Shown here in pieces: positions 1,084-9,719 of a stretch of DNA of 10,205 bases. This DNA comes from a virus (Duplodnaviria; Heunggongvirae; Uroviricota; Caudoviricetes), in the IMG/VR virus record IMGVR_UViG_2531839454_000024. The stretch is one strand, 5' to 3'. Under the pieces are notes generated by a model that made no database searches, was not told the origin of the DNA, and saw only the letters and a program-made list of their open reading frames with translations. A program made the position numbers and the translations under genes. The first letter of the stretch is position 1, and every line of letters starts with the position of its first letter.

Positions 1084-1256
1084 TAAAGACCTTTCTCTAC
1101 ATTTCACTTCATTACATAACCACTTAAAAAAAACAGTAAGTTATCACCGAATCGGCCTGATTTTCATTTCAGTTAATTTCATGACATTACAACCTCGTGA
1201 TGGTATAAGTGATGGTATTCCCCAGTTCGATATGCAGATACCATCAATTTACCAAA

Positions 1257-2543
1257 ATGAGTACAGATATGGCCATTAATGTGCTTTCCCCCAAACAGAT
1301 AGAAAACGCCAAGCCGAAGACCAATGATTACAAACTTACCGATGGAGGGAGTTTGTATCTACTGGTACGAAAGACTGGTGGAAAATACTGGCGTATGAAT
1401 TATCGTTTTGATGGAAAACAAGTGACATTGGCATTAGGGGTCTACCCAGATGTCTCACTTGCAACAGCGCGGAAACGGCGTGATGAAGCCAGGCAACTAC
1501 TAGCCGATGGCCGTGATCCTCGCGAAGCAAAGAAACCCAAAAAGGAAGACCCAATTTCCCCCACGTTCGAGAGTGTTGCCAGAGAGTGGCATAGTGGAAC
1601 GATGGGGCATCCTGAGTGGAAAGAGATCACCCGTAAAAAAATTCTCCGAGAAATGGAAAACCACCTCTTTCCTGCCATCGGTTCAAAGCCTATCGATACG
1701 CTCAAAACCCGTGACTTGATGCCGATGCTGGTTGAGATGACTGAGAAAGGAATTGGTGCCACAACGAGCCGGGTAAAAACCACTATGACGAGCATCTTCC
1801 GTTATGCCGTGCAACGTGGAATTGTCGATTACAACCCTGCCCACGATCTAAAAGGTGCAATTACGGCCCCCAAAGTACGACATCGCCCCGCACTACCTCT
1901 CGAACGTTTACCTGAACTGTTAGCGAAAACGAGAAGTTACACGGGAAGACCATTGACTCGCCTAGCAGTTCTCTTTTCCCTGCACACTTTTGTGCGATCC
2001 AGCGAACTACGACATGCCAGATGGGAGGAGATCGACATTGAAAATGGGCTATGGACGATACCAGGACAACGTGAAGAGATCGCAGGGGTTAAATTCTCAG
2101 ATCGGGGTGCAAAGATGGGGGCTGCTCATTATGTCCCGCTATCTAGTCAGGCTATCGGGGTACTGGAGGATATAAGGAAAATCAGTGGTGAATATCTGCT
2201 GGTTTTCCCCGGTGACAGCAACCCATATAAACCGATGAGCGAAAACACAGTTAATAAAGCACTGCGAACGATGGGTTACGACACTCAAACTGATGTATGC
2301 TTACATGGGTTCAGGGCGATGGCCTGCTCTGCACTGACCGAATCAGGACTCTGGTCACGCGATGCAGTTGAACGGCAGATGAGTCACCAAGAAAGAAACG
2401 AAGTGCGGGCAGCATATGTGCATCTTGCGCAGCACATGCAGGAACGCCGCAGAATGATGCAATGGTGGTCTAATTATCTGGAACTAAATAAGGACGAATT
2501 TCATGCTCCTTATGACTTATCAGGTATTAACATTATCAATTAA
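1257..2543 (+). CDS. int: P4-type tyrosine integrase (site-specific recombinase, tRNA-targeting)
   Basis: N-terminal arm-binding-type motif (KQIENAKPK...YKLTDGGSLYLLV...KYWRMNYRF...TLALGVYPDVSLATARKRRDEAR) typical of P4 Int. C-terminal catalytic region has HGFRAMA and a terminal AAYVHL tyrosine. Start is uncertain: ATG 1257 or ATG 1269; the 1209 GTG extension in the ORF track is unlikely. Sits directly 3' of a tRNA gene, as is usual for this family. Confidence 0.9.
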   Translation: MSTDMAINVLSPKQIENAKPKTNDYKLTDGGSLYLLVRKTGGKYWRMNYRFDGKQVTLALGVYPDVSLATARKRRDEARQLLADGRDPREAKKPKKEDPISPTFESVAREWHSGTMGHPEWKEITRKKILREMENHLFPAIGSKPIDTLKTRDLMPMLVEMTEKGIGATTSRVKTTMTSIFRYAVQRGIVDYNPAHDLKGAITAPKVRHRPALPLERLPELLAKTRSYTGRPLTRLAVLFSLHTFVRSSELRHARWEEIDIENGLWTIPGQREEIAGVKFSDRGAKMGAAHYVPLSSQAIGVLEDIRKISGEYLLVFPGDSNPYKPMSENTVNKALRTMGYDTQTDVCLHGFRAMACSALTESGLWSRDAVERQMSHQERNEVRAAYVHLAQHMQERRRMMQWWSNYLELNKDEFHAPYDLSGINIIN

Positions 2544-2573: not shown

Positions 2574-3455
2574 ATGCAGCATTCAACAGAGAATGAAACT
2601 ATATTCTTAGGAAATCTATGGATTGACAAAAAAATACCACCATTAGAATATTGTTCATTTGAACGCGCTTCAAGACTATTAGAATGCGAGATTGATGATT
2701 TATTACACCTATACGAAATAGGCGCTTTTAATATCGCATTCAAGGCGGATGGACTTGCAGTTAGATTTAATGTTAATTTCCTCAATAAAAATCAGAAAGT
2801 GGAAATTGACTTAATTCATCCCGTATTAACTAATCAATCACTAGAGATGGAATTTTCAACAATATGGTATGACCTTAAAGATGATTCCTTTGAACATTTT
2901 GAAAATGGGCTTCAAATTATAGGATTTGCCTGTGGTATTTGGTACGCCGATGATATGATAAGTGACATAAAAAATGGATTAGCTATAGATCCAGATTATG
3001 AATTCAGGCTTAAACCGGTAAAAATACGAGATAATGTTTTGATGGCAACGGCCTCATATGAAGGAAATAAGGTCATTGATATTCCATTTGAAGATCTTCT
3101 TATCATGCGAAGAGATTTAGAGTTAATATGGAAATCAGTAAAAACTGGAATTCCTATGCCAAGTTTACTTACGAAAAGAATTTCATCTGAACCTAAAATC
3201 CCCAAGCGATTAAATAACACTGCTGAGCATCATGCAAAAAATAGGGAGGGGTTATTAAATGCAGCCATATATATATTAGCAAAATACCCAAGCGAATGTC
3301 GTGGTGAAAGAAAAGAGATAAGTCCTGAAAAGTGGACTAACGCCATAATTAAACATTTAGGAGAGCTACCTCCAATATTTATCACTAATGAACAAGAAAT
3401 CTTAAGAAAATTACGATTAGCGGTTAATCATGCGGGATTAAAACAAAAGGGGTAG
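2574..3455 (+). CDS. Hypothetical protein, 293 aa, no family recognised; AT-rich orphan cargo gene
   Basis: Clean ORF with a strong SD 5 nt upstream. Markedly lower G+C than its neighbours (about one third by hand count of four 60-nt samples). No TM helices and no motif I can assign. Confidence 0.8.
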   Translation: MQHSTENETIFLGNLWIDKKIPPLEYCSFERASRLLECEIDDLLHLYEIGAFNIAFKADGLAVRFNVNFLNKNQKVEIDLIHPVLTNQSLEMEFSTIWYDLKDDSFEHFENGLQIIGFACGIWYADDMISDIKNGLAIDPDYEFRLKPVKIRDNVLMATASYEGNKVIDIPFEDLLIMRRDLELIWKSVKTGIPMPSLLTKRISSEPKIPKRLNNTAEHHAKNREGLLNAAIYILAKYPSECRGERKEISPEKWTNAIIKHLGELPPIFITNEQEILRKLRLAVNHAGLKQKG

Positions 3456-3521
3456 ACTGAAACAATCTACAGGTAGAGTTGATTACACTACCTTCACAGC
3501 ATTTTGATATCCCCATAGTAT

Positions 3522-3550
3522 CTGCCGTGTTCATTACATAACACGGCAGG
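3522..3550 (+). promoter_or_regulatory. Perfect 10-bp inverted repeat (CTGCCGTGTT-9 nt-AACACGGCAG) just upstream of alpA
   Basis: Arms 3522-3531 and 3541-3550 are exact reverse complements. The loop is CATTACATA. The right arm abuts the weak alpA SD. Could be a terminator for the upstream orphan gene (no U-tract) or an operator or RBS-sequestering hairpin. Confidence 0.35.
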
Positions 3551-3557
3551 TAATTTC

Positions 3558-3773
3558 ATGACATTAAAAACTTATCCTATCACTGGACATGCCCGCCCAC
3601 GAGCTACTGCTGACTTTTTGCAAATAAGTACGGTTACTCTCTGGCGCTGGGAAAAGAACAATCCTGAATTTCCCAAATCTATACGCATTTCAAAACGGGT
3701 ATCTGTTTACGATGCACAAGAAATTAGGCAGTGGGTTAAAGCTCAATCAGCAGGATTGGAGGAAGTAGTGTAA
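3558..3773 (+). CDS. alpA: AlpA-family phage transcriptional regulator (excisionase-like HTH)
   Basis: 71-aa protein with the Phage_AlpA-type pattern FLQISTVTLWRWEKNNPEFPKSIRIS...VYDAQEIRQWV. Located downstream of a P4-type int, as in CP4-57-type islands. Confidence 0.85.
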   Translation: MTLKTYPITGHARPRATADFLQISTVTLWRWEKNNPEFPKSIRISKRVSVYDAQEIRQWVKAQSAGLEEVV

Positions 3774-3791
3774 TGACAATATTAACAAAGC

Positions 3792-3813
3792 TGGGGAGAA
3801 AAAAGCCTCCCCA
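3792..3813. terminator. Hairpin between convergent alpA and RHH genes (possible bidirectional terminator)
   Basis: Stem TGGGGAG 3792-3798 / CTCCCCA 3807-3813 with an A-rich 8-nt loop. Lies between the alpA stop (3773) and the stop of the minus-strand ORF (3823). Confidence 0.35.
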
Positions 3814-3822
3814 ACGTATTAA

Positions 3823-4017
3823 TCAATTCTTTGGTTCTAAACCTCGGCTTTGTAACTCTTTGCGTAGAATGCGCTTGATCCAAGCCGCTAGCGATTCATC
3901 GCCATCCTGCTGTTGTGCTTGTTCCATCAGTTCACGCAGTTCAGGGTCAAGTCGGAACTGGAATGGCGGATTCCCACGTCTTTCATTTTTGTGTGTTGAC
4001 ACGTCAATTACACCCAT
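3823..4017 (-). CDS. Small ribbon-helix-helix (Arc/CopG-like) DNA-binding protein, putative satellite repressor
   Basis: 64-aa ORF. PPFQFRLDPELRELMEQ...SLAAWIKRILRKEL fits a beta-strand plus two-helix RHH pattern. Divergent from the downstream replication operon. No clear SD, so the start is uncertain. Confidence 0.55.
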   Translation of the reverse strand: MGVIDVSTHKNERRGNPPFQFRLDPELRELMEQAQQQDGDESLAAWIKRILRKELQSRGLEPKN

Positions 4018-4051
4018 TGTAATGTATTTATGTGTAATGACACATTACACA
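3996..4051 (+). promoter_or_regulatory. Candidate promoter and operator for the replication operon
   Basis: TTGACA 3996-4001, 16-bp spacer, TGTAAT 4018-4023. Directly downstream is a perfect palindrome TGTGTAATG-ACA-CATTACACA (arms 4031-4039 and 4043-4051). Confidence 0.4.
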
Positions 4052-4133
4052 CAGAAAAACAAAATAGCAACGCCCCGGAGTGTTTGCAGCAGCACCGAGG
4101 CGTCTGACCAGCACGTTATATGAGGTAACGAAG

Positions 4134-4310
4134 ATGGCTAAACAGAAGTGTACCTGGTTATTTGCGGCGATCAACCGCAGTCAACGTAATGCCCGTCCGG
4201 TGATGTTAAGGATCACCGCAGATAACGAACGATCAGCGCGGCGCAGACTTGCCCCGGACTATGTACTGAGCTTTGCCGGGCGCATTCCCTGCGGAGGGGA
4301 ACATGCGTAA
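4134..4310 (+). CDS. Icd-like small protein (host cell division inhibitor Icd-like family), tentative
   Basis: 58 aa from ATG 4134 with SD GAGG 4122-4125. The sequence KCTWLFAAINRS...PVMLRITADNERSARRRLAPDYVLSFAGRIP matches my recollection of the Icd-like family common in P4-like elements. The GTG 4080 extension was rejected. Confidence 0.5.
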   Translation: MAKQKCTWLFAAINRSQRNARPVMLRITADNERSARRRLAPDYVLSFAGRIPCGGEHA

Positions 4311-4662
4311 TTATCCGCACCCCGGCGAACGCTGGCAGCATGAACGTGGCTGGACGGTCACGATTATCCGATTAATAGAAGCCTCGCCCTCTGTGGCGCT
4401 GGTTAATCCTGAATTCAGCTGTGAAGTGCTGATACGTCATGACAGCGACAACCAGCTATCTTCCTGCCCTCTGGCATGGTTTGAACAGCGGTATACGCGC
4501 CTGTTTGATGTACCGCTCTTTAAGCCTGCACCAGCTCCTGCAGGCGGTAGTGGTTCCGGCCCGCTGACACTGCATCCGTCTGTGCTATTTATCCGCTGGC
4601 GGGAGCGTAGCATATGGCGTTCTGCTGAGCCTGACGACGGTCACTATTCAAAGTTTCTCTGA
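4303..4662 (+). CDS. Hypothetical protein (possibly Ash-family-like), 119 aa
   Basis: ATG 4303 overlaps the stop of the Icd-like gene by 8 nt, with SD GGAGGGGA upstream. Coding-like composition. Family assignment is only from memory of typical P4-like annotations. Confidence 0.55.
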   Translation: MRNYPHPGERWQHERGWTVTIIRLIEASPSVALVNPEFSCEVLIRHDSDNQLSSCPLAWFEQRYTRLFDVPLFKPAPAPAGGSGSGPLTLHPSVLFIRWRERSIWRSAEPDDGHYSKFL

Positions 4663-4693
4663 CAAAATACCGCTGAAAACGGAGTAATCCACG

Positions 4694-4978
4694 ATGAATA
4701 TTTCAAACGGGCACAACGGTGCTCAGGGCCACACTTTGCCTGAAAAACACAATACCGGTGCTTTTGCCTATGGGTTGTCAGAGGACAGTTTCGGAAAGCT
4801 GACCCGCGCAAAAAATGCCTGCGACATGCTCCAGCTTCTCTTTTCTGAATACCCGTCTCAGGCCGGAGCACTGGACGCTGGCTGTGCGCATGGTGTCGCC
4901 GCGCTGATGGAGTACCTGCTGGCAGATTTGACGGATATTGCACACAGCTGCGCACTGATTGAAGGAGGTGCCAGATGA
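4694..4978 (+). CDS. Hypothetical protein, 94 aa
   Basis: ATG 4694 preceded by GGAG (4681-4684). Its stop overlaps the next start (ATGA at 4975-4978). Confidence 0.6.
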   Translation: MNISNGHNGAQGHTLPEKHNTGAFAYGLSEDSFGKLTRAKNACDMLQLLFSEYPSQAGALDAGCAHGVAALMEYLLADLTDIAHSCALIEGGAR

Positions 4979-8427: not shown

Positions 8428-9171
8428 ATGAACAACACCGCAGTGAATAACAACCTTTCCACTTTTCCGGCTGTAACGCAGCGGGCACTGGAAACCATGA
8501 ACACAGCCAGAAACGCATGGCTTGAAGCACGTCGTCAGCAGAAAGCGGCAGCGGATAATATTGCGACAATCCGCCAGCGTCGCGCTGAAATGGAAGCCAC
8601 GACGAACACACTGAATGAGGAGTGGCGCACGCTGTTTCGTGAAAGTCAGGGCGTGGTCTCAAAGGAAATGAAAAAACTGCGCACGGAAATTGCGCTGGGA
8701 CGAGAAACGCTTGAGGATTTTGATGAGCTGCTGGCGGCTCAGGAAAGCGAAAATGCACTTTTGCCGCAGAAAGCTGCGGAATTAGCCGGAAAGTATATCC
8801 ACGCGCATAACATTCTTGTGGATATTCGCGCAAAACAAATCTGGGAAGATTTTATGCAGTCGCATGGAAAAGCGCTTATTCAGACGCTGAGCCTGCTTAA
8901 ATCCACAATGGGCCGGGAAGCCAGTGCCGTTGTGGGTGTGGTGAATTCAGTTAATGACCCGGACACAGTGCTGAAAGACTTTATTCATAAACATATCACC
9001 AGACCGGCTCTGGCTAACGATGCGATGCCTGAACAGGACCCGGTGTTTAAACTGGCGGGAGTTGCCCCGGATTATGCGGCGCGTCTGGATTTCAGTAATC
9101 AACTCTCTCCGGCAGCTATGCATAAAATAAAGGTTCGTCAGGAACTTGCTGAGAAGGAGAAAGCTGTATGA
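8428..9171 (+). CDS. Sid/Psu-family protein, probable capsid size determination (Sid-like) protein
   Basis: 247 aa (P4 Sid is about 244 aa). Helical, A/E/K/R/Q-rich. Contains WEDFMQSHGKAL, the same motif class as the next gene's SNFMQANGAAL. Sits behind the late promoter. Confidence 0.45.
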   Translation: MNNTAVNNNLSTFPAVTQRALETMNTARNAWLEARRQQKAAADNIATIRQRRAEMEATTNTLNEEWRTLFRESQGVVSKEMKKLRTEIALGRETLEDFDELLAAQESENALLPQKAAELAGKYIHAHNILVDIRAKQIWEDFMQSHGKALIQTLSLLKSTMGREASAVVGVVNSVNDPDTVLKDFIHKHITRPALANDAMPEQDPVFKLAGVAPDYAARLDFSNQLSPAAMHKIKVRQELAEKEKAV

Positions 9172-9719
9172 CGGCCCGAGGCACACCTGACCAGGCACTT
9201 ACCAGTTTTCGGAATGCCCGTATTCTGTGGGCCGGACATAGTGAGACCCGAAAAGCCGTTGAACAACAGATAGCATCTCTCCTCGCTGCCACAGAAAAAC
9301 CAACAGATTATGCCCGACAGCTCGAATTACTGCGGGAACGTCTGGATGTGCTGAAATGGCAAATTAACTGTGCTGCTCGCGAATGCATTTACTCGCAGCA
9401 TTTATTGATGGAGGCCTGCACTGAAGCTGCTCTCAGCAATTTTATGCAGGCGAATGGGGCAGCCCTGACATCTGCACTGGCTCCGTTCCTGAAGGGGCGC
9501 GGAGGGGTTGACGTTGCGTCCCGTATATTACGCAGTGCTCTGGTTCGCCAGCTGGCAATAACACCGCCTGAAATTGCCGGGGATTATCGTGAGATCCTGG
9601 ATGAATCCGGTTTGATGCCAGACCCCGGGATGATTCGTGATTGCCAGGGCTCTTACACCCCGGCACAACATCTGCGTTTTCAGCAACGCCTGAATGACAT
9701 TAACGATATACAGGAGTGA
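9168..9719 (+). CDS. psu: Psu-like polarity suppression protein
   Basis: 183 aa (P4 Psu is about 190 aa). Motifs KWQINCAARECI, FMQANGAALTSALAP and YTPAQ match my recollection of P4 Psu. Start ATGA overlaps the upstream stop. Followed by an Ogr/Delta-like gene. Confidence 0.6.
   Translation: MTARGTPDQALTSFRNARILWAGHSETRKAVEQQIASLLAATEKPTDYARQLELLRERLDVLKWQINCAARECIYSQHLLMEACTEAALSNFMQANGAALTSALAPFLKGRGGVDVASRILRSALVRQLAITPPEIAGDYREILDESGLMPDPGMIRDCQGSYTPAQHLRFQQRLNDINDIQE

What the first reader, a model, noticed from the sequence alone, without database searches (positions are those of the whole stretch)
3996..4133. Perfect 21-bp palindrome operator at a candidate promoter between the RHH gene and the replication operon; CATTAC half-site recurs at three control regions
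Seen: TTGACA (3996-4001), N16, TGTAAT (4018-4023), followed at once by the palindrome TGTGTAATG-ACA-CATTACACA (4031-4051), then about 80 nt of leader before the Icd-like ATG (4134). The hexamer CATTAC/GTAATG occurs at 4018-4023 (shifted), 4034-4039 and 4043-4048, and also inside both copies of the 13-mer upstream of int and alpA. The RHH ORF on the opposite strand starts at 4017 without an SD. Inference: one dimeric regulator (the RHH protein or AlpA) may bind CATTAC-type half-sites to coordinate integration, excision and replication. The long leader could also host an RNA-based immunity element as in P4, but I cannot see a convincing structure.
Basis: partly seen in the sequence, partly recalled or inferred. 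Interest (0 to 1): 0.45.

Follow-up and report, generated by a model that had tools for sequence, protein, structure and literature searches.

The report
Satellite repressor operator plus antisense RNA
The palindrome belongs to a cluster of binding boxes for a tiny, usually unannotated ribbon-helix-helix repressor that probably sits on two head-on promoters of a P4-like phage satellite; the 'leader' beside it carries a conserved structured RNA on the opposite strand, probably an antisense RNA, that is absent from Rfam.

Summary
TTGACA (3996-4001), TGTAAT (4018-4023) and the 9+3+9 palindrome (4031-4051) are all there.

The palindrome alone is not beyond chance: 23% of shuffled windows hold one. 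The cluster of four CAwTTACAC boxes is significant (0/300 shuffles).

Comparison with about 45 related loci shows these are operators of the divergent RHH gene. Thirteen of 14 distinct elements with the same RHH class keep the boxes and a 12-bp core GTGT-N4-ACAC, even where AlpA is unrelated (17% identity or less). At least eight other RHH/YlcI classes carry their own repeated palindromes at the same place. The model PICI EcCICFT073 is one of them.

The idea of a shared CATTAC regulon (int, alpA, replication) is not supported. Those copies follow the int/alpA module, not the RHH class.

The conserved RHH start is GTG 4002 (59 aa, SD GGGTG), not ATG 4017.

The leader does hold a structure, on the minus strand:
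- Two hairpins are 94% paired, and 13/19 pairs show compensatory changes.
- G.U pairs number 67 on the minus strand against 7 on the plus strand.
- A -10-like hexamer lies 15-16 nt upstream in 29/29 sequences.

This predicts an antisense RNA of about 85 nt covering the icd-like ribosome-binding site. Sister elements carry C4 RNA at that position instead.

All binding, promoter use and transcripts are inferred.

The parts
3790..3815 (-). Terminator-like hairpin with a T-rich tail just downstream of the RHH stop codon. It also lies after the alpA stop on the other strand.
   Evidence: Terminator scan, (10 pairs, 6 GC, tail TTTGTTAATA).
3823..4002 (-). RHH (Arc-like) repressor gene, 59 aa. The start is GTG at 4002-4000 and the SD-like GGGTG lies at 4015-4011.
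3996..4001 (+). -35 TTGACA of the rightward promoter P_icd. It overlaps RHH codons 1-3.
   Evidence: Invariant in 9 class-1 loci. Kept in Frischella, where it lies outside the CDS. Same position as the -35 of TTGACA-N17-TATATT (11/12) in L030.
4006..4013 (+). Operator box A, AATTACAC.
   Evidence: Invariant in alignment A3. Inverted with box B (I8).
4018..4025 (+). Operator box B, TGTAATGT. It contains the candidate -10 of P_icd: TGTAAT 4018-4023 (N16) or TAATGT 4020-4025 (N18, with A at position 2 and T at position 6).
   Evidence: TAATGT is invariant in A3 and kept in the 5 distant genera. Not called by the consensus scan.
4031..4051 (.). The 9+3+9 palindrome (boxes C 4031-4039 and D 4043-4051). 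The conserved core is the 12-mer GTGTAATGACAC at 4032-4043.
   Evidence: I5. The perfect 21-bp form is present in 5/14 distinct class-1 loci. GTGT-N4-ACAC is present in 13/14, and the 12-mer is inverted in Proteus.
4042..4047 (-). Candidate -10 TAATGT of the leftward promoter P_rhh, inside box D.
   Evidence: My own reading of the sequence. ACATTA is invariant in A3. The class-2 equivalents are TACAAT or TATAAT next to the distal operator (sequences).
4065..4070 (-). Candidate -35 TTGCTA of P_rhh, 17 nt from its -10.
   Evidence: My own reading. The CAA (= TTG on the minus strand) is invariant in A3.
4052..4068 (-). U-rich tract (GCUAUUUUGUUUUUCUG on the minus strand) following hairpin H1'.
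   Evidence: Sequence. The homologous site in L008 is called a minus-strand terminator. The tract is absent in YlcI-class loci.
4069..4104 (-). Hairpin H1': 14-pair GC-rich stem, terminator-like on the minus strand.
   Evidence: 11 of its 14 pairs show compensatory changes.
4114..4130 (-). Hairpin H2' (CGUUA / UAACG). Its loop CCUCAUA is complementary to the icd SD GAGG (4122-4125).
4056..4141 (-). Predicted cis-antisense RNA (about 85 nt) covering the icd-like start codon, SD and leader.
   Evidence: Covariance model R1 scores the window at 82 bits. It scores 6 untrained loci at 64-83 bits and gives no hit in the roughly 50 C4-type loci searched. Strand bias.
4147..4174 (-). Candidate antisense promoter P_as: -35 TTGATC 4174-4169, N16, -10 TACACT 4152-4147, inside icd codons 5-14.
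   Evidence: A TAnnnT hexamer lies 15-16 nt upstream of H2' in 29/29 distinct leaders, in several coding contexts.
4134..4310 (+). icd-like gene, first gene of the replication operon (target of the control region).
   Evidence: NCBIfam phage_ICD_like, 84 bits, E 5.5e-24.
3530..3542 (+). 13-mer TTCATTACATAAC in the loop of a hairpin upstream of alpA; the second copy is at 1108-1120. It belongs to the int/alpA module, not to the RHH operator.

Best explanation
The region 3996-4175 is the immunity-type switch of a P4-like satellite. The window holds tRNA-Arg, int, alpA, RHH, icd-like, primase, sid-like, psu and delta.

Repressor and operator. The 59-aa ribbon-helix-helix protein encoded leftward (4002-3823) binds, probably as cooperating dimers, to four 8-bp boxes of consensus CAwTTACAC: A 4006-4013, B 4018-4025, C 4032-4039 and D 4043-4050.

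Promoters. Boxes B and D each contain a TAATGT hexamer that can serve as the -10 of one of two head-on promoters.
- P_icd (-35 TTGACA 3996-4001) reads rightward into the icd-like/primase operon.
- P_rhh (-35 TTGCTA 4070-4065) reads leftward into the repressor gene.
The predicted start points lie about 3-5 bp apart, inside the 12-bp core GTGTAATGACAC. Repressor occupancy would therefore silence the replication operon and autoregulate the repressor.

Second layer. An antisense RNA of about 85 nt starts from a promoter inside the first icd codons (TTGATC-N16-TACACT, 4174-4147). It presents an anti-SD loop (CCUCAUA) on hairpin H2' and ends at the terminator-like hairpin H1' with its U-rich tract. 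It would block translation of leaky icd transcripts. C4/CI RNA has that role in P1, P4 and the sister elements that carry C4 at this position.

Shown here: the sequence features; their conservation; co-variation of RHH class with box sequence; RNA covariation and its strand bias. Inferred: protein binding, promoter use, existence of the transcript, and what lifts repression.
For: 1. Same RHH class, same boxes. 9 loci plus 5 loci from other genera (Proteus, Yersinia, Xenorhabdus, Frischella, Edwardsiella) carry RHH proteins about 75-95% identical. In the first 9, boxes A, B and D are invariant. 13/14 keep GTGT-N4-ACAC. The ribbon residues GNPPFQFRLDP are (nearly) invariant in 28 homologues.

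2. Different class, different boxes at the same place.
- SPPFQMRL: GGTAATTACC x2.
- DQYQIRL: TTGTAATTACAA x2.
- APAFQIRI: GCGTAC repeats.
- ARFPHDVV: GTGCGATTCAC x3.
- ARVPHDVV: GTGGGCCAC x3.
- ARAPHEVV: ACTGGAATCCAGT x3.
- VRVPHEIA: GTGTCGGACAC x3.
- VRVPHEVV: GTGTGTTTCAC x3.

3. Other candidate binders are excluded.
- AlpA is 10-17% identical in L007/L008/L009, which have the same boxes.
- The Icd-like protein is the identical WP_001118612.1 in L004, L005 and L006, which have three different box sets.

4. In E. coli, similarity for many elements starts only at window 4094 or 4107. The RHH gene, the boxes and most of H1 are therefore exchanged as one cassette.

5. Box cluster: 0/300 shuffles reach it.

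6. The homologous promoter is near-consensus in relatives: TTGACA-N17-TATATT, 11/12, in L030; TTGACG-N18-TATAGT, 10/12, in EcCICFT073.

8. Antisense RNA.
- 94.4% of cells are paired, 13/19 pairs have changes on both sides, and 0/500 shuffles reach the observed values.
- The minus-strand fold is more stable in 29/29 sequences (mean -22.0 against -17.0 kcal/mol).
- G.U cells number 67 on the minus strand against 7 on the plus strand.
- A TAnnnT hexamer lies 15-16 nt upstream of H2' in 29/29, including the extended -10 TGnTATGAT in the long-Icd class.
- The L008 homologue of H1' is called a terminator.
- Model R1 finds the motif only next to RHH genes and on their strand. It was absent from the roughly 50 C4-type loci searched.

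9. Icd-like genes without an RHH neighbour carry C4 RNA (RF01695, 87 bits) at the same position.
Against: - There are no experimental data of any kind.
- The window's own P_icd is weak. TGTAAT lacks A at position 2, and TAATGT needs an 18-nt spacer and matches only 3/6. It was not called by the scan. P_rhh and P_as also fall below the scan threshold.
- The RHH assignment is below NCBIfam's curated cut-off, has no Pfam hit, and the Foldseek E-values are above 1.
- The perfect 21-bp palindrome is kept in only 5/14 class-1 loci, so the binding geometry (which boxes pair) is unknown.
- The U-tract after H1' is interrupted in the window, and H1' was not called a terminator there.
- YlcI-class loci have no U-tract, so H1' may not terminate in them.
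- The window's antisense fold has only z = -1.9.
- The 29 leader sequences are related; the effective number is 4.4.
Confidence: 0.72

Rival explanations
1. One reading: one regulator (RHH or AlpA) binds CATTAC half-sites at three control regions (upstream of int, upstream of alpA, and at the palindrome) and coordinates integration, excision and replication.
For: CATTACA occurs 7 times in the window against 1.4 expected (0/300 shuffles). Three of the four copies outside the operator lie in the int and alpA upstream regions (1110, 1185, 3532). The exact 13-mer TTCATTACATAAC is shared by the two regions.
Against: L008 and L009 have the same RHH class and the same operator but no CATTACA upstream of int or alpA. 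The 13-mer upstream of alpA is kept only in L004, which shares the alpA type (86% identity). The 1108 copy is absent from that element's int-proximal end. The 1185 copy is part of a conserved repeat, ATTTCATGACATTA, that marks a uORF start and the alpA start. AlpA is unrelated in loci that keep the palindrome. The copies outside the operator are single boxes, not pairs.
Confidence: 0.06
2. The palindrome and the leader hairpins act in the plus-strand icd mRNA: a 5' stabilising hairpin, attenuator, processing site or protein-binding RNA element. They are not a DNA operator plus an antisense RNA.
For: If transcription starts near 4030, the palindrome is transcribed and can form a 9-bp hairpin. 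The two substitutions in L007/L014 would give G.U pairs on the plus strand. The complementary hairpins H1 and H2 also fold on the plus strand (-21.2 kcal/mol), with the SD in the H2 loop. There is a weak resemblance to the traJ 5' UTR (21 bits, E 0.29).
Against: The boxes also occur outside the palindrome (A, B). One box is inverted in Proteus, and the hairpin is broken in L002b, L099, L100 and L101. Other RHH classes have separate short palindromes 30-45 bp apart that cannot form one hairpin. For H1/H2, the plus strand has C.A mismatches where the minus strand has G.U (7 against 67 cells) and is less stable in 29/29. No plus-strand U-tract follows H1.
Confidence: 0.1
3. H1'/H2' are real minus-strand RNA structures, but there is no discrete small RNA. 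They are the leader or attenuator of a longer repressor transcript from the promoter inside icd (a lambda PRE-like establishment transcript), or an insulator protecting P_rhh.
For: The RHH gene lies directly downstream on the same strand. YlcI-class loci lack a U-tract after H1'. In the window the U-tract is interrupted and was not called a terminator. The -35 of P_rhh abuts H1'.
Against: Arc-like classes do have U-rich tracts, and L008 is called a terminator. The RNA would still be antisense to the icd ribosome-binding site, so this is a variant of the best explanation rather than its opposite.
Confidence: 0.2
4. The palindrome is a chance inverted repeat in AT-rich intergenic DNA with no function.
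For: 23% of shuffled windows contain an equally good inverted repeat. CATTAC enrichment alone is weak (15/200 shuffles).
Against: It is conserved across six genera with its flanking boxes. The box cluster is reached by 0/300 shuffles. In other RHH classes it is systematically replaced by other repeated palindromes.
Confidence: 0.02

Closest known systems
Phage P22 immunity I region (RHH repressors Mnt and Arc, overlapping Pant/Pmnt promoters, sar antisense RNA against the ant ribosome-binding site)
   Same: Small RHH repressor(s) acting on short symmetric operators at closely overlapping opposed promoters, plus a short cis-antisense RNA covering the ribosome-binding site of the controlled gene. 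The components of P22 immI are as summarised in PMC2629481; the promoter geometry is from my own knowledge.
   Different: There is one RHH gene, not two. The controlled gene is an icd-like gene heading a satellite replication operon, not an antirepressor. There is no sequence match to any Rfam family. The boxes are four dispersed 8-mers rather than one 21-bp operator.
P1 immI / P4 immunity: C4/CI antisense RNA (Rfam RF01695) with isrK/seqA-type targets upstream of icd/kil
   Same: Same genomic position (immediately upstream of an icd-like gene) and the same predicted target (its ribosome-binding site). Sister loci found through the Icd-like protein carry C4 (87 bits) and isrK (64.5 bits) there. 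Some Gram-negative PICIs are reported to carry C4/isrK (PMC10111431).
   Different: C4 is encoded on the same strand as its target and processed from the leader. Here the RNA is cis-encoded on the opposite strand with its own promoter-like element. The window has no C4 hit, even at E up to 10 on 241 nt. A protein repressor is present as well.
RHH operators read as repeated short boxes (omega of pSM19035, CopG, MetJ, Arc)
   Same: Short 7-10-bp boxes in direct or inverted orientation, with several copies over promoter elements. One box is inverted in Proteus without loss of the site, as is tolerated by omega heptads (my own knowledge).
   Different: Box sequence and spacing (12, 15 and 10 bp centre to centre) match none of these. 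Stoichiometry is untested.
Face-to-face lysis/lysogeny promoters of P2 (Pe/Pc) and 186 (pR/pL)
   Same: Opposed promoters whose polymerases exclude or interfere with each other, with the repressor gene on one arm (my own knowledge).
   Different: There the repressors are HTH proteins and the transcripts overlap by tens of nt. Here the predicted starts are only a few bp apart, and the promoters are predicted only.
FinP / traJ 5' UTR of F-like plasmids
   Same: A two-stem-loop cis-antisense RNA complementary to a 5' UTR, with the ribosome-binding site in or next to a loop. The only Rfam hit under E 1 in the region is traJ_5.
   Different: 21 bits against a gathering score of 50, so it is not a member. 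The genetic context is unrelated.
Stl/Rpr master repressors of Gram-positive PICIs
   Same: A divergently transcribed repressor between the int/xis side and the replication operon of a phage satellite (PMC6092414).
   Different: Stl proteins are large HTH repressors. For Gram-negative PICIs the 2018 paper states that a global repressor is 'unclear' and that AlpA is an activator. The small RHH/YlcI gene of EcCICFT073 carries late-added locus tags (C_RS30120).

Membership tests
Ribbon-helix-helix (Arc/MetJ) DNA-binding superfamily | Beta-alpha-alpha fold of about 45 residues | tested here: met
Ribbon-helix-helix (Arc/MetJ) DNA-binding superfamily | Significant match to a curated sequence family | tested here: inconclusive
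   PHROG 228 'Arc-like repressor' E 8.9e-6. NCBIfam YlcI_YnfO_N 20.7 bits, below its cut-off of 30. No Pfam hit. No PDB sequence hit below E 0.07.
Ribbon-helix-helix (Arc/MetJ) DNA-binding superfamily | Dimer inserts a two-stranded ribbon into the major groove of short repeated or symmetric sites | not testable with these tools
   Indirect only: ribbon residues are invariant within a class and differ between classes, in step with the boxes.
Repressor-operator (immunity) module | Operator sequence co-varies with repressor specificity class and not with neighbouring genes | tested here: met
   Nine RHH/YlcI classes listed, each with its own boxes. AlpA and the Icd-like protein are excluded as determinants.
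   TTGACA is perfect. TGTAAT lacks A at position 2 and was not called. The alternative TAATGT (N18) has A2/T6 and is invariant. Homologous positions in L030 and EcCICFT073 are called at 11/12 and 10/12.
C4 antisense RNA (Rfam RF01695; P1 C4, P4 CI) | Match to the covariance model at or above 45 bits | tested here: not met
   No hit at E up to 1 in the whole window or E up to 10 in 3960-4200. Positive control L038 scores 87.1 bits.
cis-encoded antisense RNA | Conserved secondary structure selected on the antisense strand | tested here: met
   (see best explanation).
cis-encoded antisense RNA | Own promoter and terminator; transcript detectable | tested here: inconclusive
   A -10-like hexamer lies at a fixed distance in 29/29. 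The window's TTGATC-N16-TACACT matches only 8/12. H1' with its U-tract is called a terminator in L008 but not in the window. Transcript detection is not testable here.
P4-like satellite | Core genes: int, alpA/vis, alpha primase-helicase, sid, psu, delta (and epsilon/ash) | tested here: met
   Phage_AlpA, Psu x2 (the 247-aa paralogue matches PHROG 6165), Ogr_Delta and DUF5375. An integrase ORF and an 890-aa ORF whose close homologues are annotated as TOPRIM and DUF927 domain proteins. tRNA-Arg at the left end. An epsilon/ash homologue was not identified.

The most novel reading that the evidence does not exclude
The small RHH/YlcI gene, its class-specific operator boxes and an uncatalogued cis-antisense RNA together form the missing immunity (master-repressor) cassette of Gram-negative phage satellites. 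This covers both P4-like elements and PICIs such as EcCICFT073. The cassette is exchanged as a unit and exists in many heteroimmune specificity classes. It is the functional alternative to C4/CI RNA immunity upstream of icd-like genes. The antisense RNA would be a new RNA family.
Probability: 0.4. Interest if true: 0.72.

Novelty: new variant of a known kind. Interest (0 to 1): 0.55.

Why it matters
[quoted passage not shown] For P4-like elements, only RNA (CI) immunity is textbook knowledge.

This locus shows a protein repressor with matched operators sitting exactly between alpA and the replication operon. Its many relatives show the same, including EcCICFT073, plasmids and a 106-kb Klebsiella phage. 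The repressor is annotated 'hypothetical' or not at all. The locus probably adds an antisense RNA that is absent from Rfam.

If confirmed, this would give:
- a concrete handle on how these satellites stay silent and what a helper phage must overcome;
- an explanation for the mosaic breakpoints in the leader;
- a set of at least 9 small orthogonal repressor/operator pairs.

The operator itself is of an ordinary kind.

Tried and rejected
- Rfam on the whole window and on 3960-4200 at permissive E-values. Only the tRNA was found. C4, isrK and other families were absent, and traJ_5 at 21 bits is noise.
- Plus-strand consensus folding of the leader. RNAalifold on the MAFFT alignment recovered only 9 pairs with a weak covariation term. 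The structure became clear only after per-sequence folding of both strands.
- AlpA as the binder: rejected by the identity table.
- The Icd-like protein as the binder (PHROGs call its family 'transcriptional repressor'): rejected because identical Icd proteins accompany three different box sets.
- The 13-mer/CATTAC regulon: rejected by motif searches in relatives.
- ATG 4017 as the RHH start: rejected.
- My first claim that the antisense -10 sits at a fixed distance from the ATG was wrong. It lies at +13 in some classes and +7 in the long-Icd class. The constant distance is to hairpin H2'. The automatic ATG picking was unreliable, and only its 26 C4-type controls are used.
- PDB sequence search for the RHH protein: nothing meaningful.
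- PADLOC on the neighbouring unknown ORFs: nothing.
- Literature searches: no description of this RHH gene, its operators or the antisense RNA. The library lacks most subscription journals, so prior description cannot be excluded.
- The genome-contig scan with the Icd alignment gave only 8 loci.
Full report
CONTEXT. The window is the left two-thirds of a P4-like satellite integrated next to a tRNA-Arg(CCU) gene (1009-1081). Its genes, in order:
- an integrase ORF (1209/1269-2543);
- an unknown 293-aa ORF (2574-3455);
- alpA (3558-3773; Phage_AlpA E 1.6e-7);
- a small leftward ORF (3823-4017);
- an icd-like gene (4134-4310; NCBIfam phage_ICD_like, 84 bits);
- three small ORFs, including a DUF5375 protein;
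- an 890-aa primase-helicase-type ORF;
- a Sid-position Psu paralogue, Psu, and an Ogr/Delta zinc-finger protein.
Part of the 3500-4700 stretch occurs in 474 of 5,426 complete E. coli genomes, and 73 hold at least 80% of it.

THE OBSERVATION.
- The palindrome is a 9+3+9 inverted repeat, TGTGTAATG-ACA-CATTACACA (4031-4051).
- By itself it is not remarkable: 23% of dinucleotide-preserving shuffles of the window contain an equally good repeat.
- CATTAC enrichment alone is weak (9 against 4.9 expected).
- What is beyond chance is the cluster. Four copies of an 8-bp box, CAwTTACAC, lie within 46 bp: A 4006-4013 (+), B 4018-4025 (-), C 4032-4039 (-), D 4043-4050 (+).
- Four ATTACA, or three CATTACA, within 50 bp were never reached in 300 shuffles.

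WHO BINDS. I collected related loci from three sources:
- E. coli genomes;
- GTDB genomes and IMG/VR contigs, found through the Icd-like protein;
- contigs encoding distant homologues of the small leftward protein.

Within the window's protein class (ribbon segment GNPPFQFRLDP, nearly invariant in 28 homologues), the first nine distinct loci keep TTGACA, box A, TAATGT of box B and box D unchanged. Five further loci from Proteus, Yersinia, Xenorhabdus, Frischella and Edwardsiella keep recognisable versions.

The perfect 21-bp palindrome survives in only 5 of 14 distinct sequences. The 12-bp core GTGT-N4-ACAC (window 4032-4043) survives in 13 of 14. Its variants are the perfect palindromes GTGTAATTACAC and GTGTATATACAC, and in Proteus GTGTCATTACAC, the exact reverse complement of the window's 12-mer. 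So the conserved units are the boxes and the 12-mer core, not the 21-mer.

Where the small protein belongs to another class, the same position holds other repeated palindromes:
- GGTAATTACC x2 with SPPFQMRL;
- TTGTAATTACAA x2 with DQYQIRL;
- GTGCGATTCAC x3, GTGGGCCAC x3, ACTGGAATCCAGT x3, GTGTCGGACAC x3 and GTGTGTTTCAC x3 with five YlcI/YnfO-type proteins.

The neighbours do not track the boxes. AlpA is 10-17% identical to the window's in L007-L009, which have the same boxes. The Icd-like protein is the same accession (WP_001118612.1) in three loci with three different box sets. In many E. coli elements, similarity to the window begins only at 4094 or 4107, inside the leader. The small gene, the boxes and most of hairpin H1 therefore move as one cassette. 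This is the signature of a repressor-operator (immunity) module.

THE PROTEIN.
- PHROGs calls it Arc-like (E 8.9e-6).
- NCBIfam YlcI_YnfO_N matches below its cut-off. Pfam and PDB sequences give nothing.
- An AlphaFold model from 28 homologues (pLDDT 80) has an extended N-terminal segment and two helices.
- The conserved start is the GTG at 4002 (59 aa). Most homologues are 59 aa. In class 2 an ATG occupies exactly this codon. In L008/L009 the upstream ATG is out of frame.
- GGGTG (GAGGTG in L008) lies 8 nt upstream.

PROMOTERS (inferred).
- TTGACA overlaps the repressor's first codons in four Arc-like classes. It is kept in Frischella, where it lies outside the coding sequence.
- In class 2 it belongs to TTGACA-N17-TATATT or TATGAT. 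L030 is called at 11/12.
- EcCICFT073 has TTGACG-N18-TATAGT.
The overlapping TAATGT (4020-4025, N18) has A2 and T6 and is invariant. Either way the -10 lies in box B, and the start falls near 4030-4032.
- Because this -35 lies inside the repressor gene, the repressor's own promoter must lie to the right and fire leftward through it.
- The best candidate is TTGCTA (4070-4065)-N17-TAATGT (4047-4042), whose -10 lies in box D, giving a start near 4035.
- Class 2 has the equivalent TTGCTT or TTGTTT, N17-18, then TACAAT or TATAAT abutting its distal operator (sequences; my own reading).
- The picture is two head-on promoters with start points a few bp apart in the 12-mer core. Both would be occluded by the repressor.

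THE LEADER. Icd-like genes in the collected loci come with two kinds of upstream region.

One kind is the C4 antisense RNA of P1/P4 with isrK-type targets (L038: RF01695 87 bits, isrK 64.5 bits). The other kind, which includes the window, is always next to an RHH/YlcI gene and has no Rfam match. It contains two hairpins:
- H1, 4069-4104;
- H2, 4114-4130, with the SD GAGG in its loop.

On a 29-sequence alignment, 94.4% of cells are paired, 13 of 19 pairs show changes on both sides, and no shuffle or slid register comes close.

The structure is selected on the minus strand:
- that strand folds better in 29/29 sequences (mean -22.0 against -17.0 kcal/mol);
- non-Watson-Crick cells are G.U on the minus strand 67 times and on the plus strand 7 times.

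On the minus strand, H1' is a long GC stem. In the Arc-like classes a U-rich tract follows it (UUGCUAUUUUGUUUUU in the window). The L008 homologue is called a terminator; the window's is not. The H2' loop reads CCUCAUA, the complement of the SD.

A TAnnnT hexamer lies 15-16 nt upstream of H2' in all 29 sequences, although it sits in several different coding contexts:
- TACACT or TAAACT, with TTGATC 16 nt upstream, in short-Icd elements;
- TGnTATGAT in long-Icd elements;
- TATGCT or TAGACT in others.

A covariance model built from the alignment finds the motif at 64-83 bits in six loci not used for training, always on the RHH strand. It finds nothing in the roughly 50 C4-type loci searched or in 40 kb of CFT073 prophage DNA.

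The simplest reading is a cis-antisense RNA of about 85 nt (about 4140 to about 4056) against the icd-like translation start.

Caveats:
- no transcript data exist;
- the window's fold has z = -1.9 only;
- YlcI-class loci lack the U-tract, so the RNA may there, or everywhere, continue into the repressor gene (a PRE-like arrangement).

THE 'THREE CONTROL REGIONS' IDEA.
- The copies of CATTACA at 1110, 1185 and 3532 do not accompany the RHH class in other elements. L008 and L009 have none upstream of int or alpA.
- The 13-mer upstream of alpA sits in the loop of a hairpin (3521-3549). It is retained only in L004, which has the same alpA type. The attL-side copy is absent there.
- The 1185 copy is part of ATTTCATGACATTA, repeated at the start of a small uORF before int and at the alpA start.
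- These features belong to the int/alpA module. I regard a shared RHH regulon as unsupported, though not formally excluded for this lineage.
- One further copy of the operator core (GTGTAATGACA, 3768-3778) overlaps the alpA stop codon.

COMPARISON WITH KNOWN SYSTEMS.
- Functionally the closest is the P22 immI region: RHH repressors Mnt and Arc plus the sar antisense RNA controlling ant (PMC2629481).
- By position and target the closest is P1 immI / P4 immunity, where C4/CI RNA controls icd/kil.
- This cassette combines a P22-like logic with a P1-like target in a satellite.
- It is not a member of RF01695, and it does not reach curated thresholds for any RHH sequence family.

LITERATURE. The paper defining Gram-negative PICIs states that a global repressor is unclear and that AlpA activates (PMC6092414). 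A later survey notes C4/isrK RNAs in some PICIs (PMC10111431). I found no description of the RHH gene, its operators or the antisense RNA, but the library is incomplete. EcCICFT073 itself carries the YlcI version of the whole cassette, under late-added locus tags.

UNTESTED IDEA. All genes except the repressor are on the plus strand. If this AlpA acts as an antiterminator like the P. aeruginosa AlpA (PMC7969949 and PMC9371919, abstracts only), read-through from alpA across the repressor gene into the icd operon would both interfere with repressor expression and express the replication genes.

VERDICT.
- The operator/RHH reading is well supported by comparative evidence.
- The AlpA and three-region parts are not supported.
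- The leader hides a conserved antisense-strand RNA.
- The operator is ordinary in kind. The cassette as a whole is a new variant of known immunity systems and bears on an open question about satellite repression.

Noticed in passing
window 3768-3778: The 11-mer GTGTAATGACA, identical to the operator core 4032-4042, overlaps the alpA stop codon (TAA 3771-3773) and lies 264 bp from the operator, on the far side of the RHH gene. The chance expectation is about 0.005 for a given 11-mer. It is absent from L004. It could be a distal operator (looping) or a coincidence.
   Followed up: partly
window 1170-1275; L098 (reverse strand): A small uORF starts at ATG 1181 in the motif CAGTTAATTTCATGACATTA, which is 88% identical to the alpA start region 3547-3572. 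It ends overlapping the likely int start (ATG 1269). The uORF and an inverted repeat TGATGGTA...TACCATCA (1209-1247) are also present upstream of int in E. coli EC1515.
   Followed up: partly
window 3521-3549: Hairpin CTGCCGTGTT / AACACGGCAG with the 13-mer TTCATTACATAAC in its loop, ending 9 nt before the alpA ATG. There is a weak RybB-like Rfam hit (21.5 bits, E 0.99), probably noise. It may control alpA expression.
   Followed up: no
L105 8474-9053 (E. coli CFT073, NC_004431.1 1380473-1381052): The model Gram-negative PICI EcCICFT073 carries the YlcI-type version of the whole cassette. It has the repressor gene, three GTGGGCCAC-type boxes, TTGACG-N18-TATAGT, hairpins H1/H2 (64.5 bits with model R1), an antisense TGGTATGAT and an icd-like gene. 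The small genes have late-added locus tags (C_RS30120/30125).
   Followed up: partly
L003 2973-3700 (plasmid p30EVA2-2, NZ_CP138421.1): A class-1 RHH gene with the same boxes, the leader RNA motif (87 bits) and the beginning of an icd-like reading frame lies directly upstream of a WYL (BrxR-like) gene and a BREX system on a 102-kb plasmid. The cassette may have been co-opted or left as a remnant there.
   Followed up: no
L001 2900-3100 (Klebsiella phage P12620-1, PQ569648.1): A 106-kb phage genome carries a fourth Arc-like class (APAFQIRI) with GCGTAC-type repeats, TTGACA over its start codon and the same leader motif (77.5 bits). The module is therefore not confined to satellites.
   Followed up: no
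L002 2999-4262 (E. coli EH53): Two repressor cassettes lie in tandem: a class-1 RHH with its boxes and leader but only a truncated icd start, followed by a YlcI-type cassette that heads the actual icd operon. This looks like a footprint of cassette replacement.
   Followed up: no
window 2574-3455: A 293-aa ORF between int and alpA has no hit in Pfam, NCBIfam, PHROGs or PADLOC. Related elements carry different cargo at this position, for example a TIR-domain protein in L007.
   Followed up: partly
window 8428-9171: The gene at the position of sid is a 247-aa Psu paralogue (Pfam Psu E 1.8e-9; PHROG 6165 E 8.7e-93), directly upstream of the canonical psu (9168-9719).
   Followed up: no
L100 (Yersinia, GCA_028854685.1): A class-1 RHH gene with degenerate boxes and the leader motif (65 bits) sits between an IS element, a RelB/YafQ toxin-antitoxin pair and phage tail-fibre genes, outside any recognisable satellite.
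   Followed up: no
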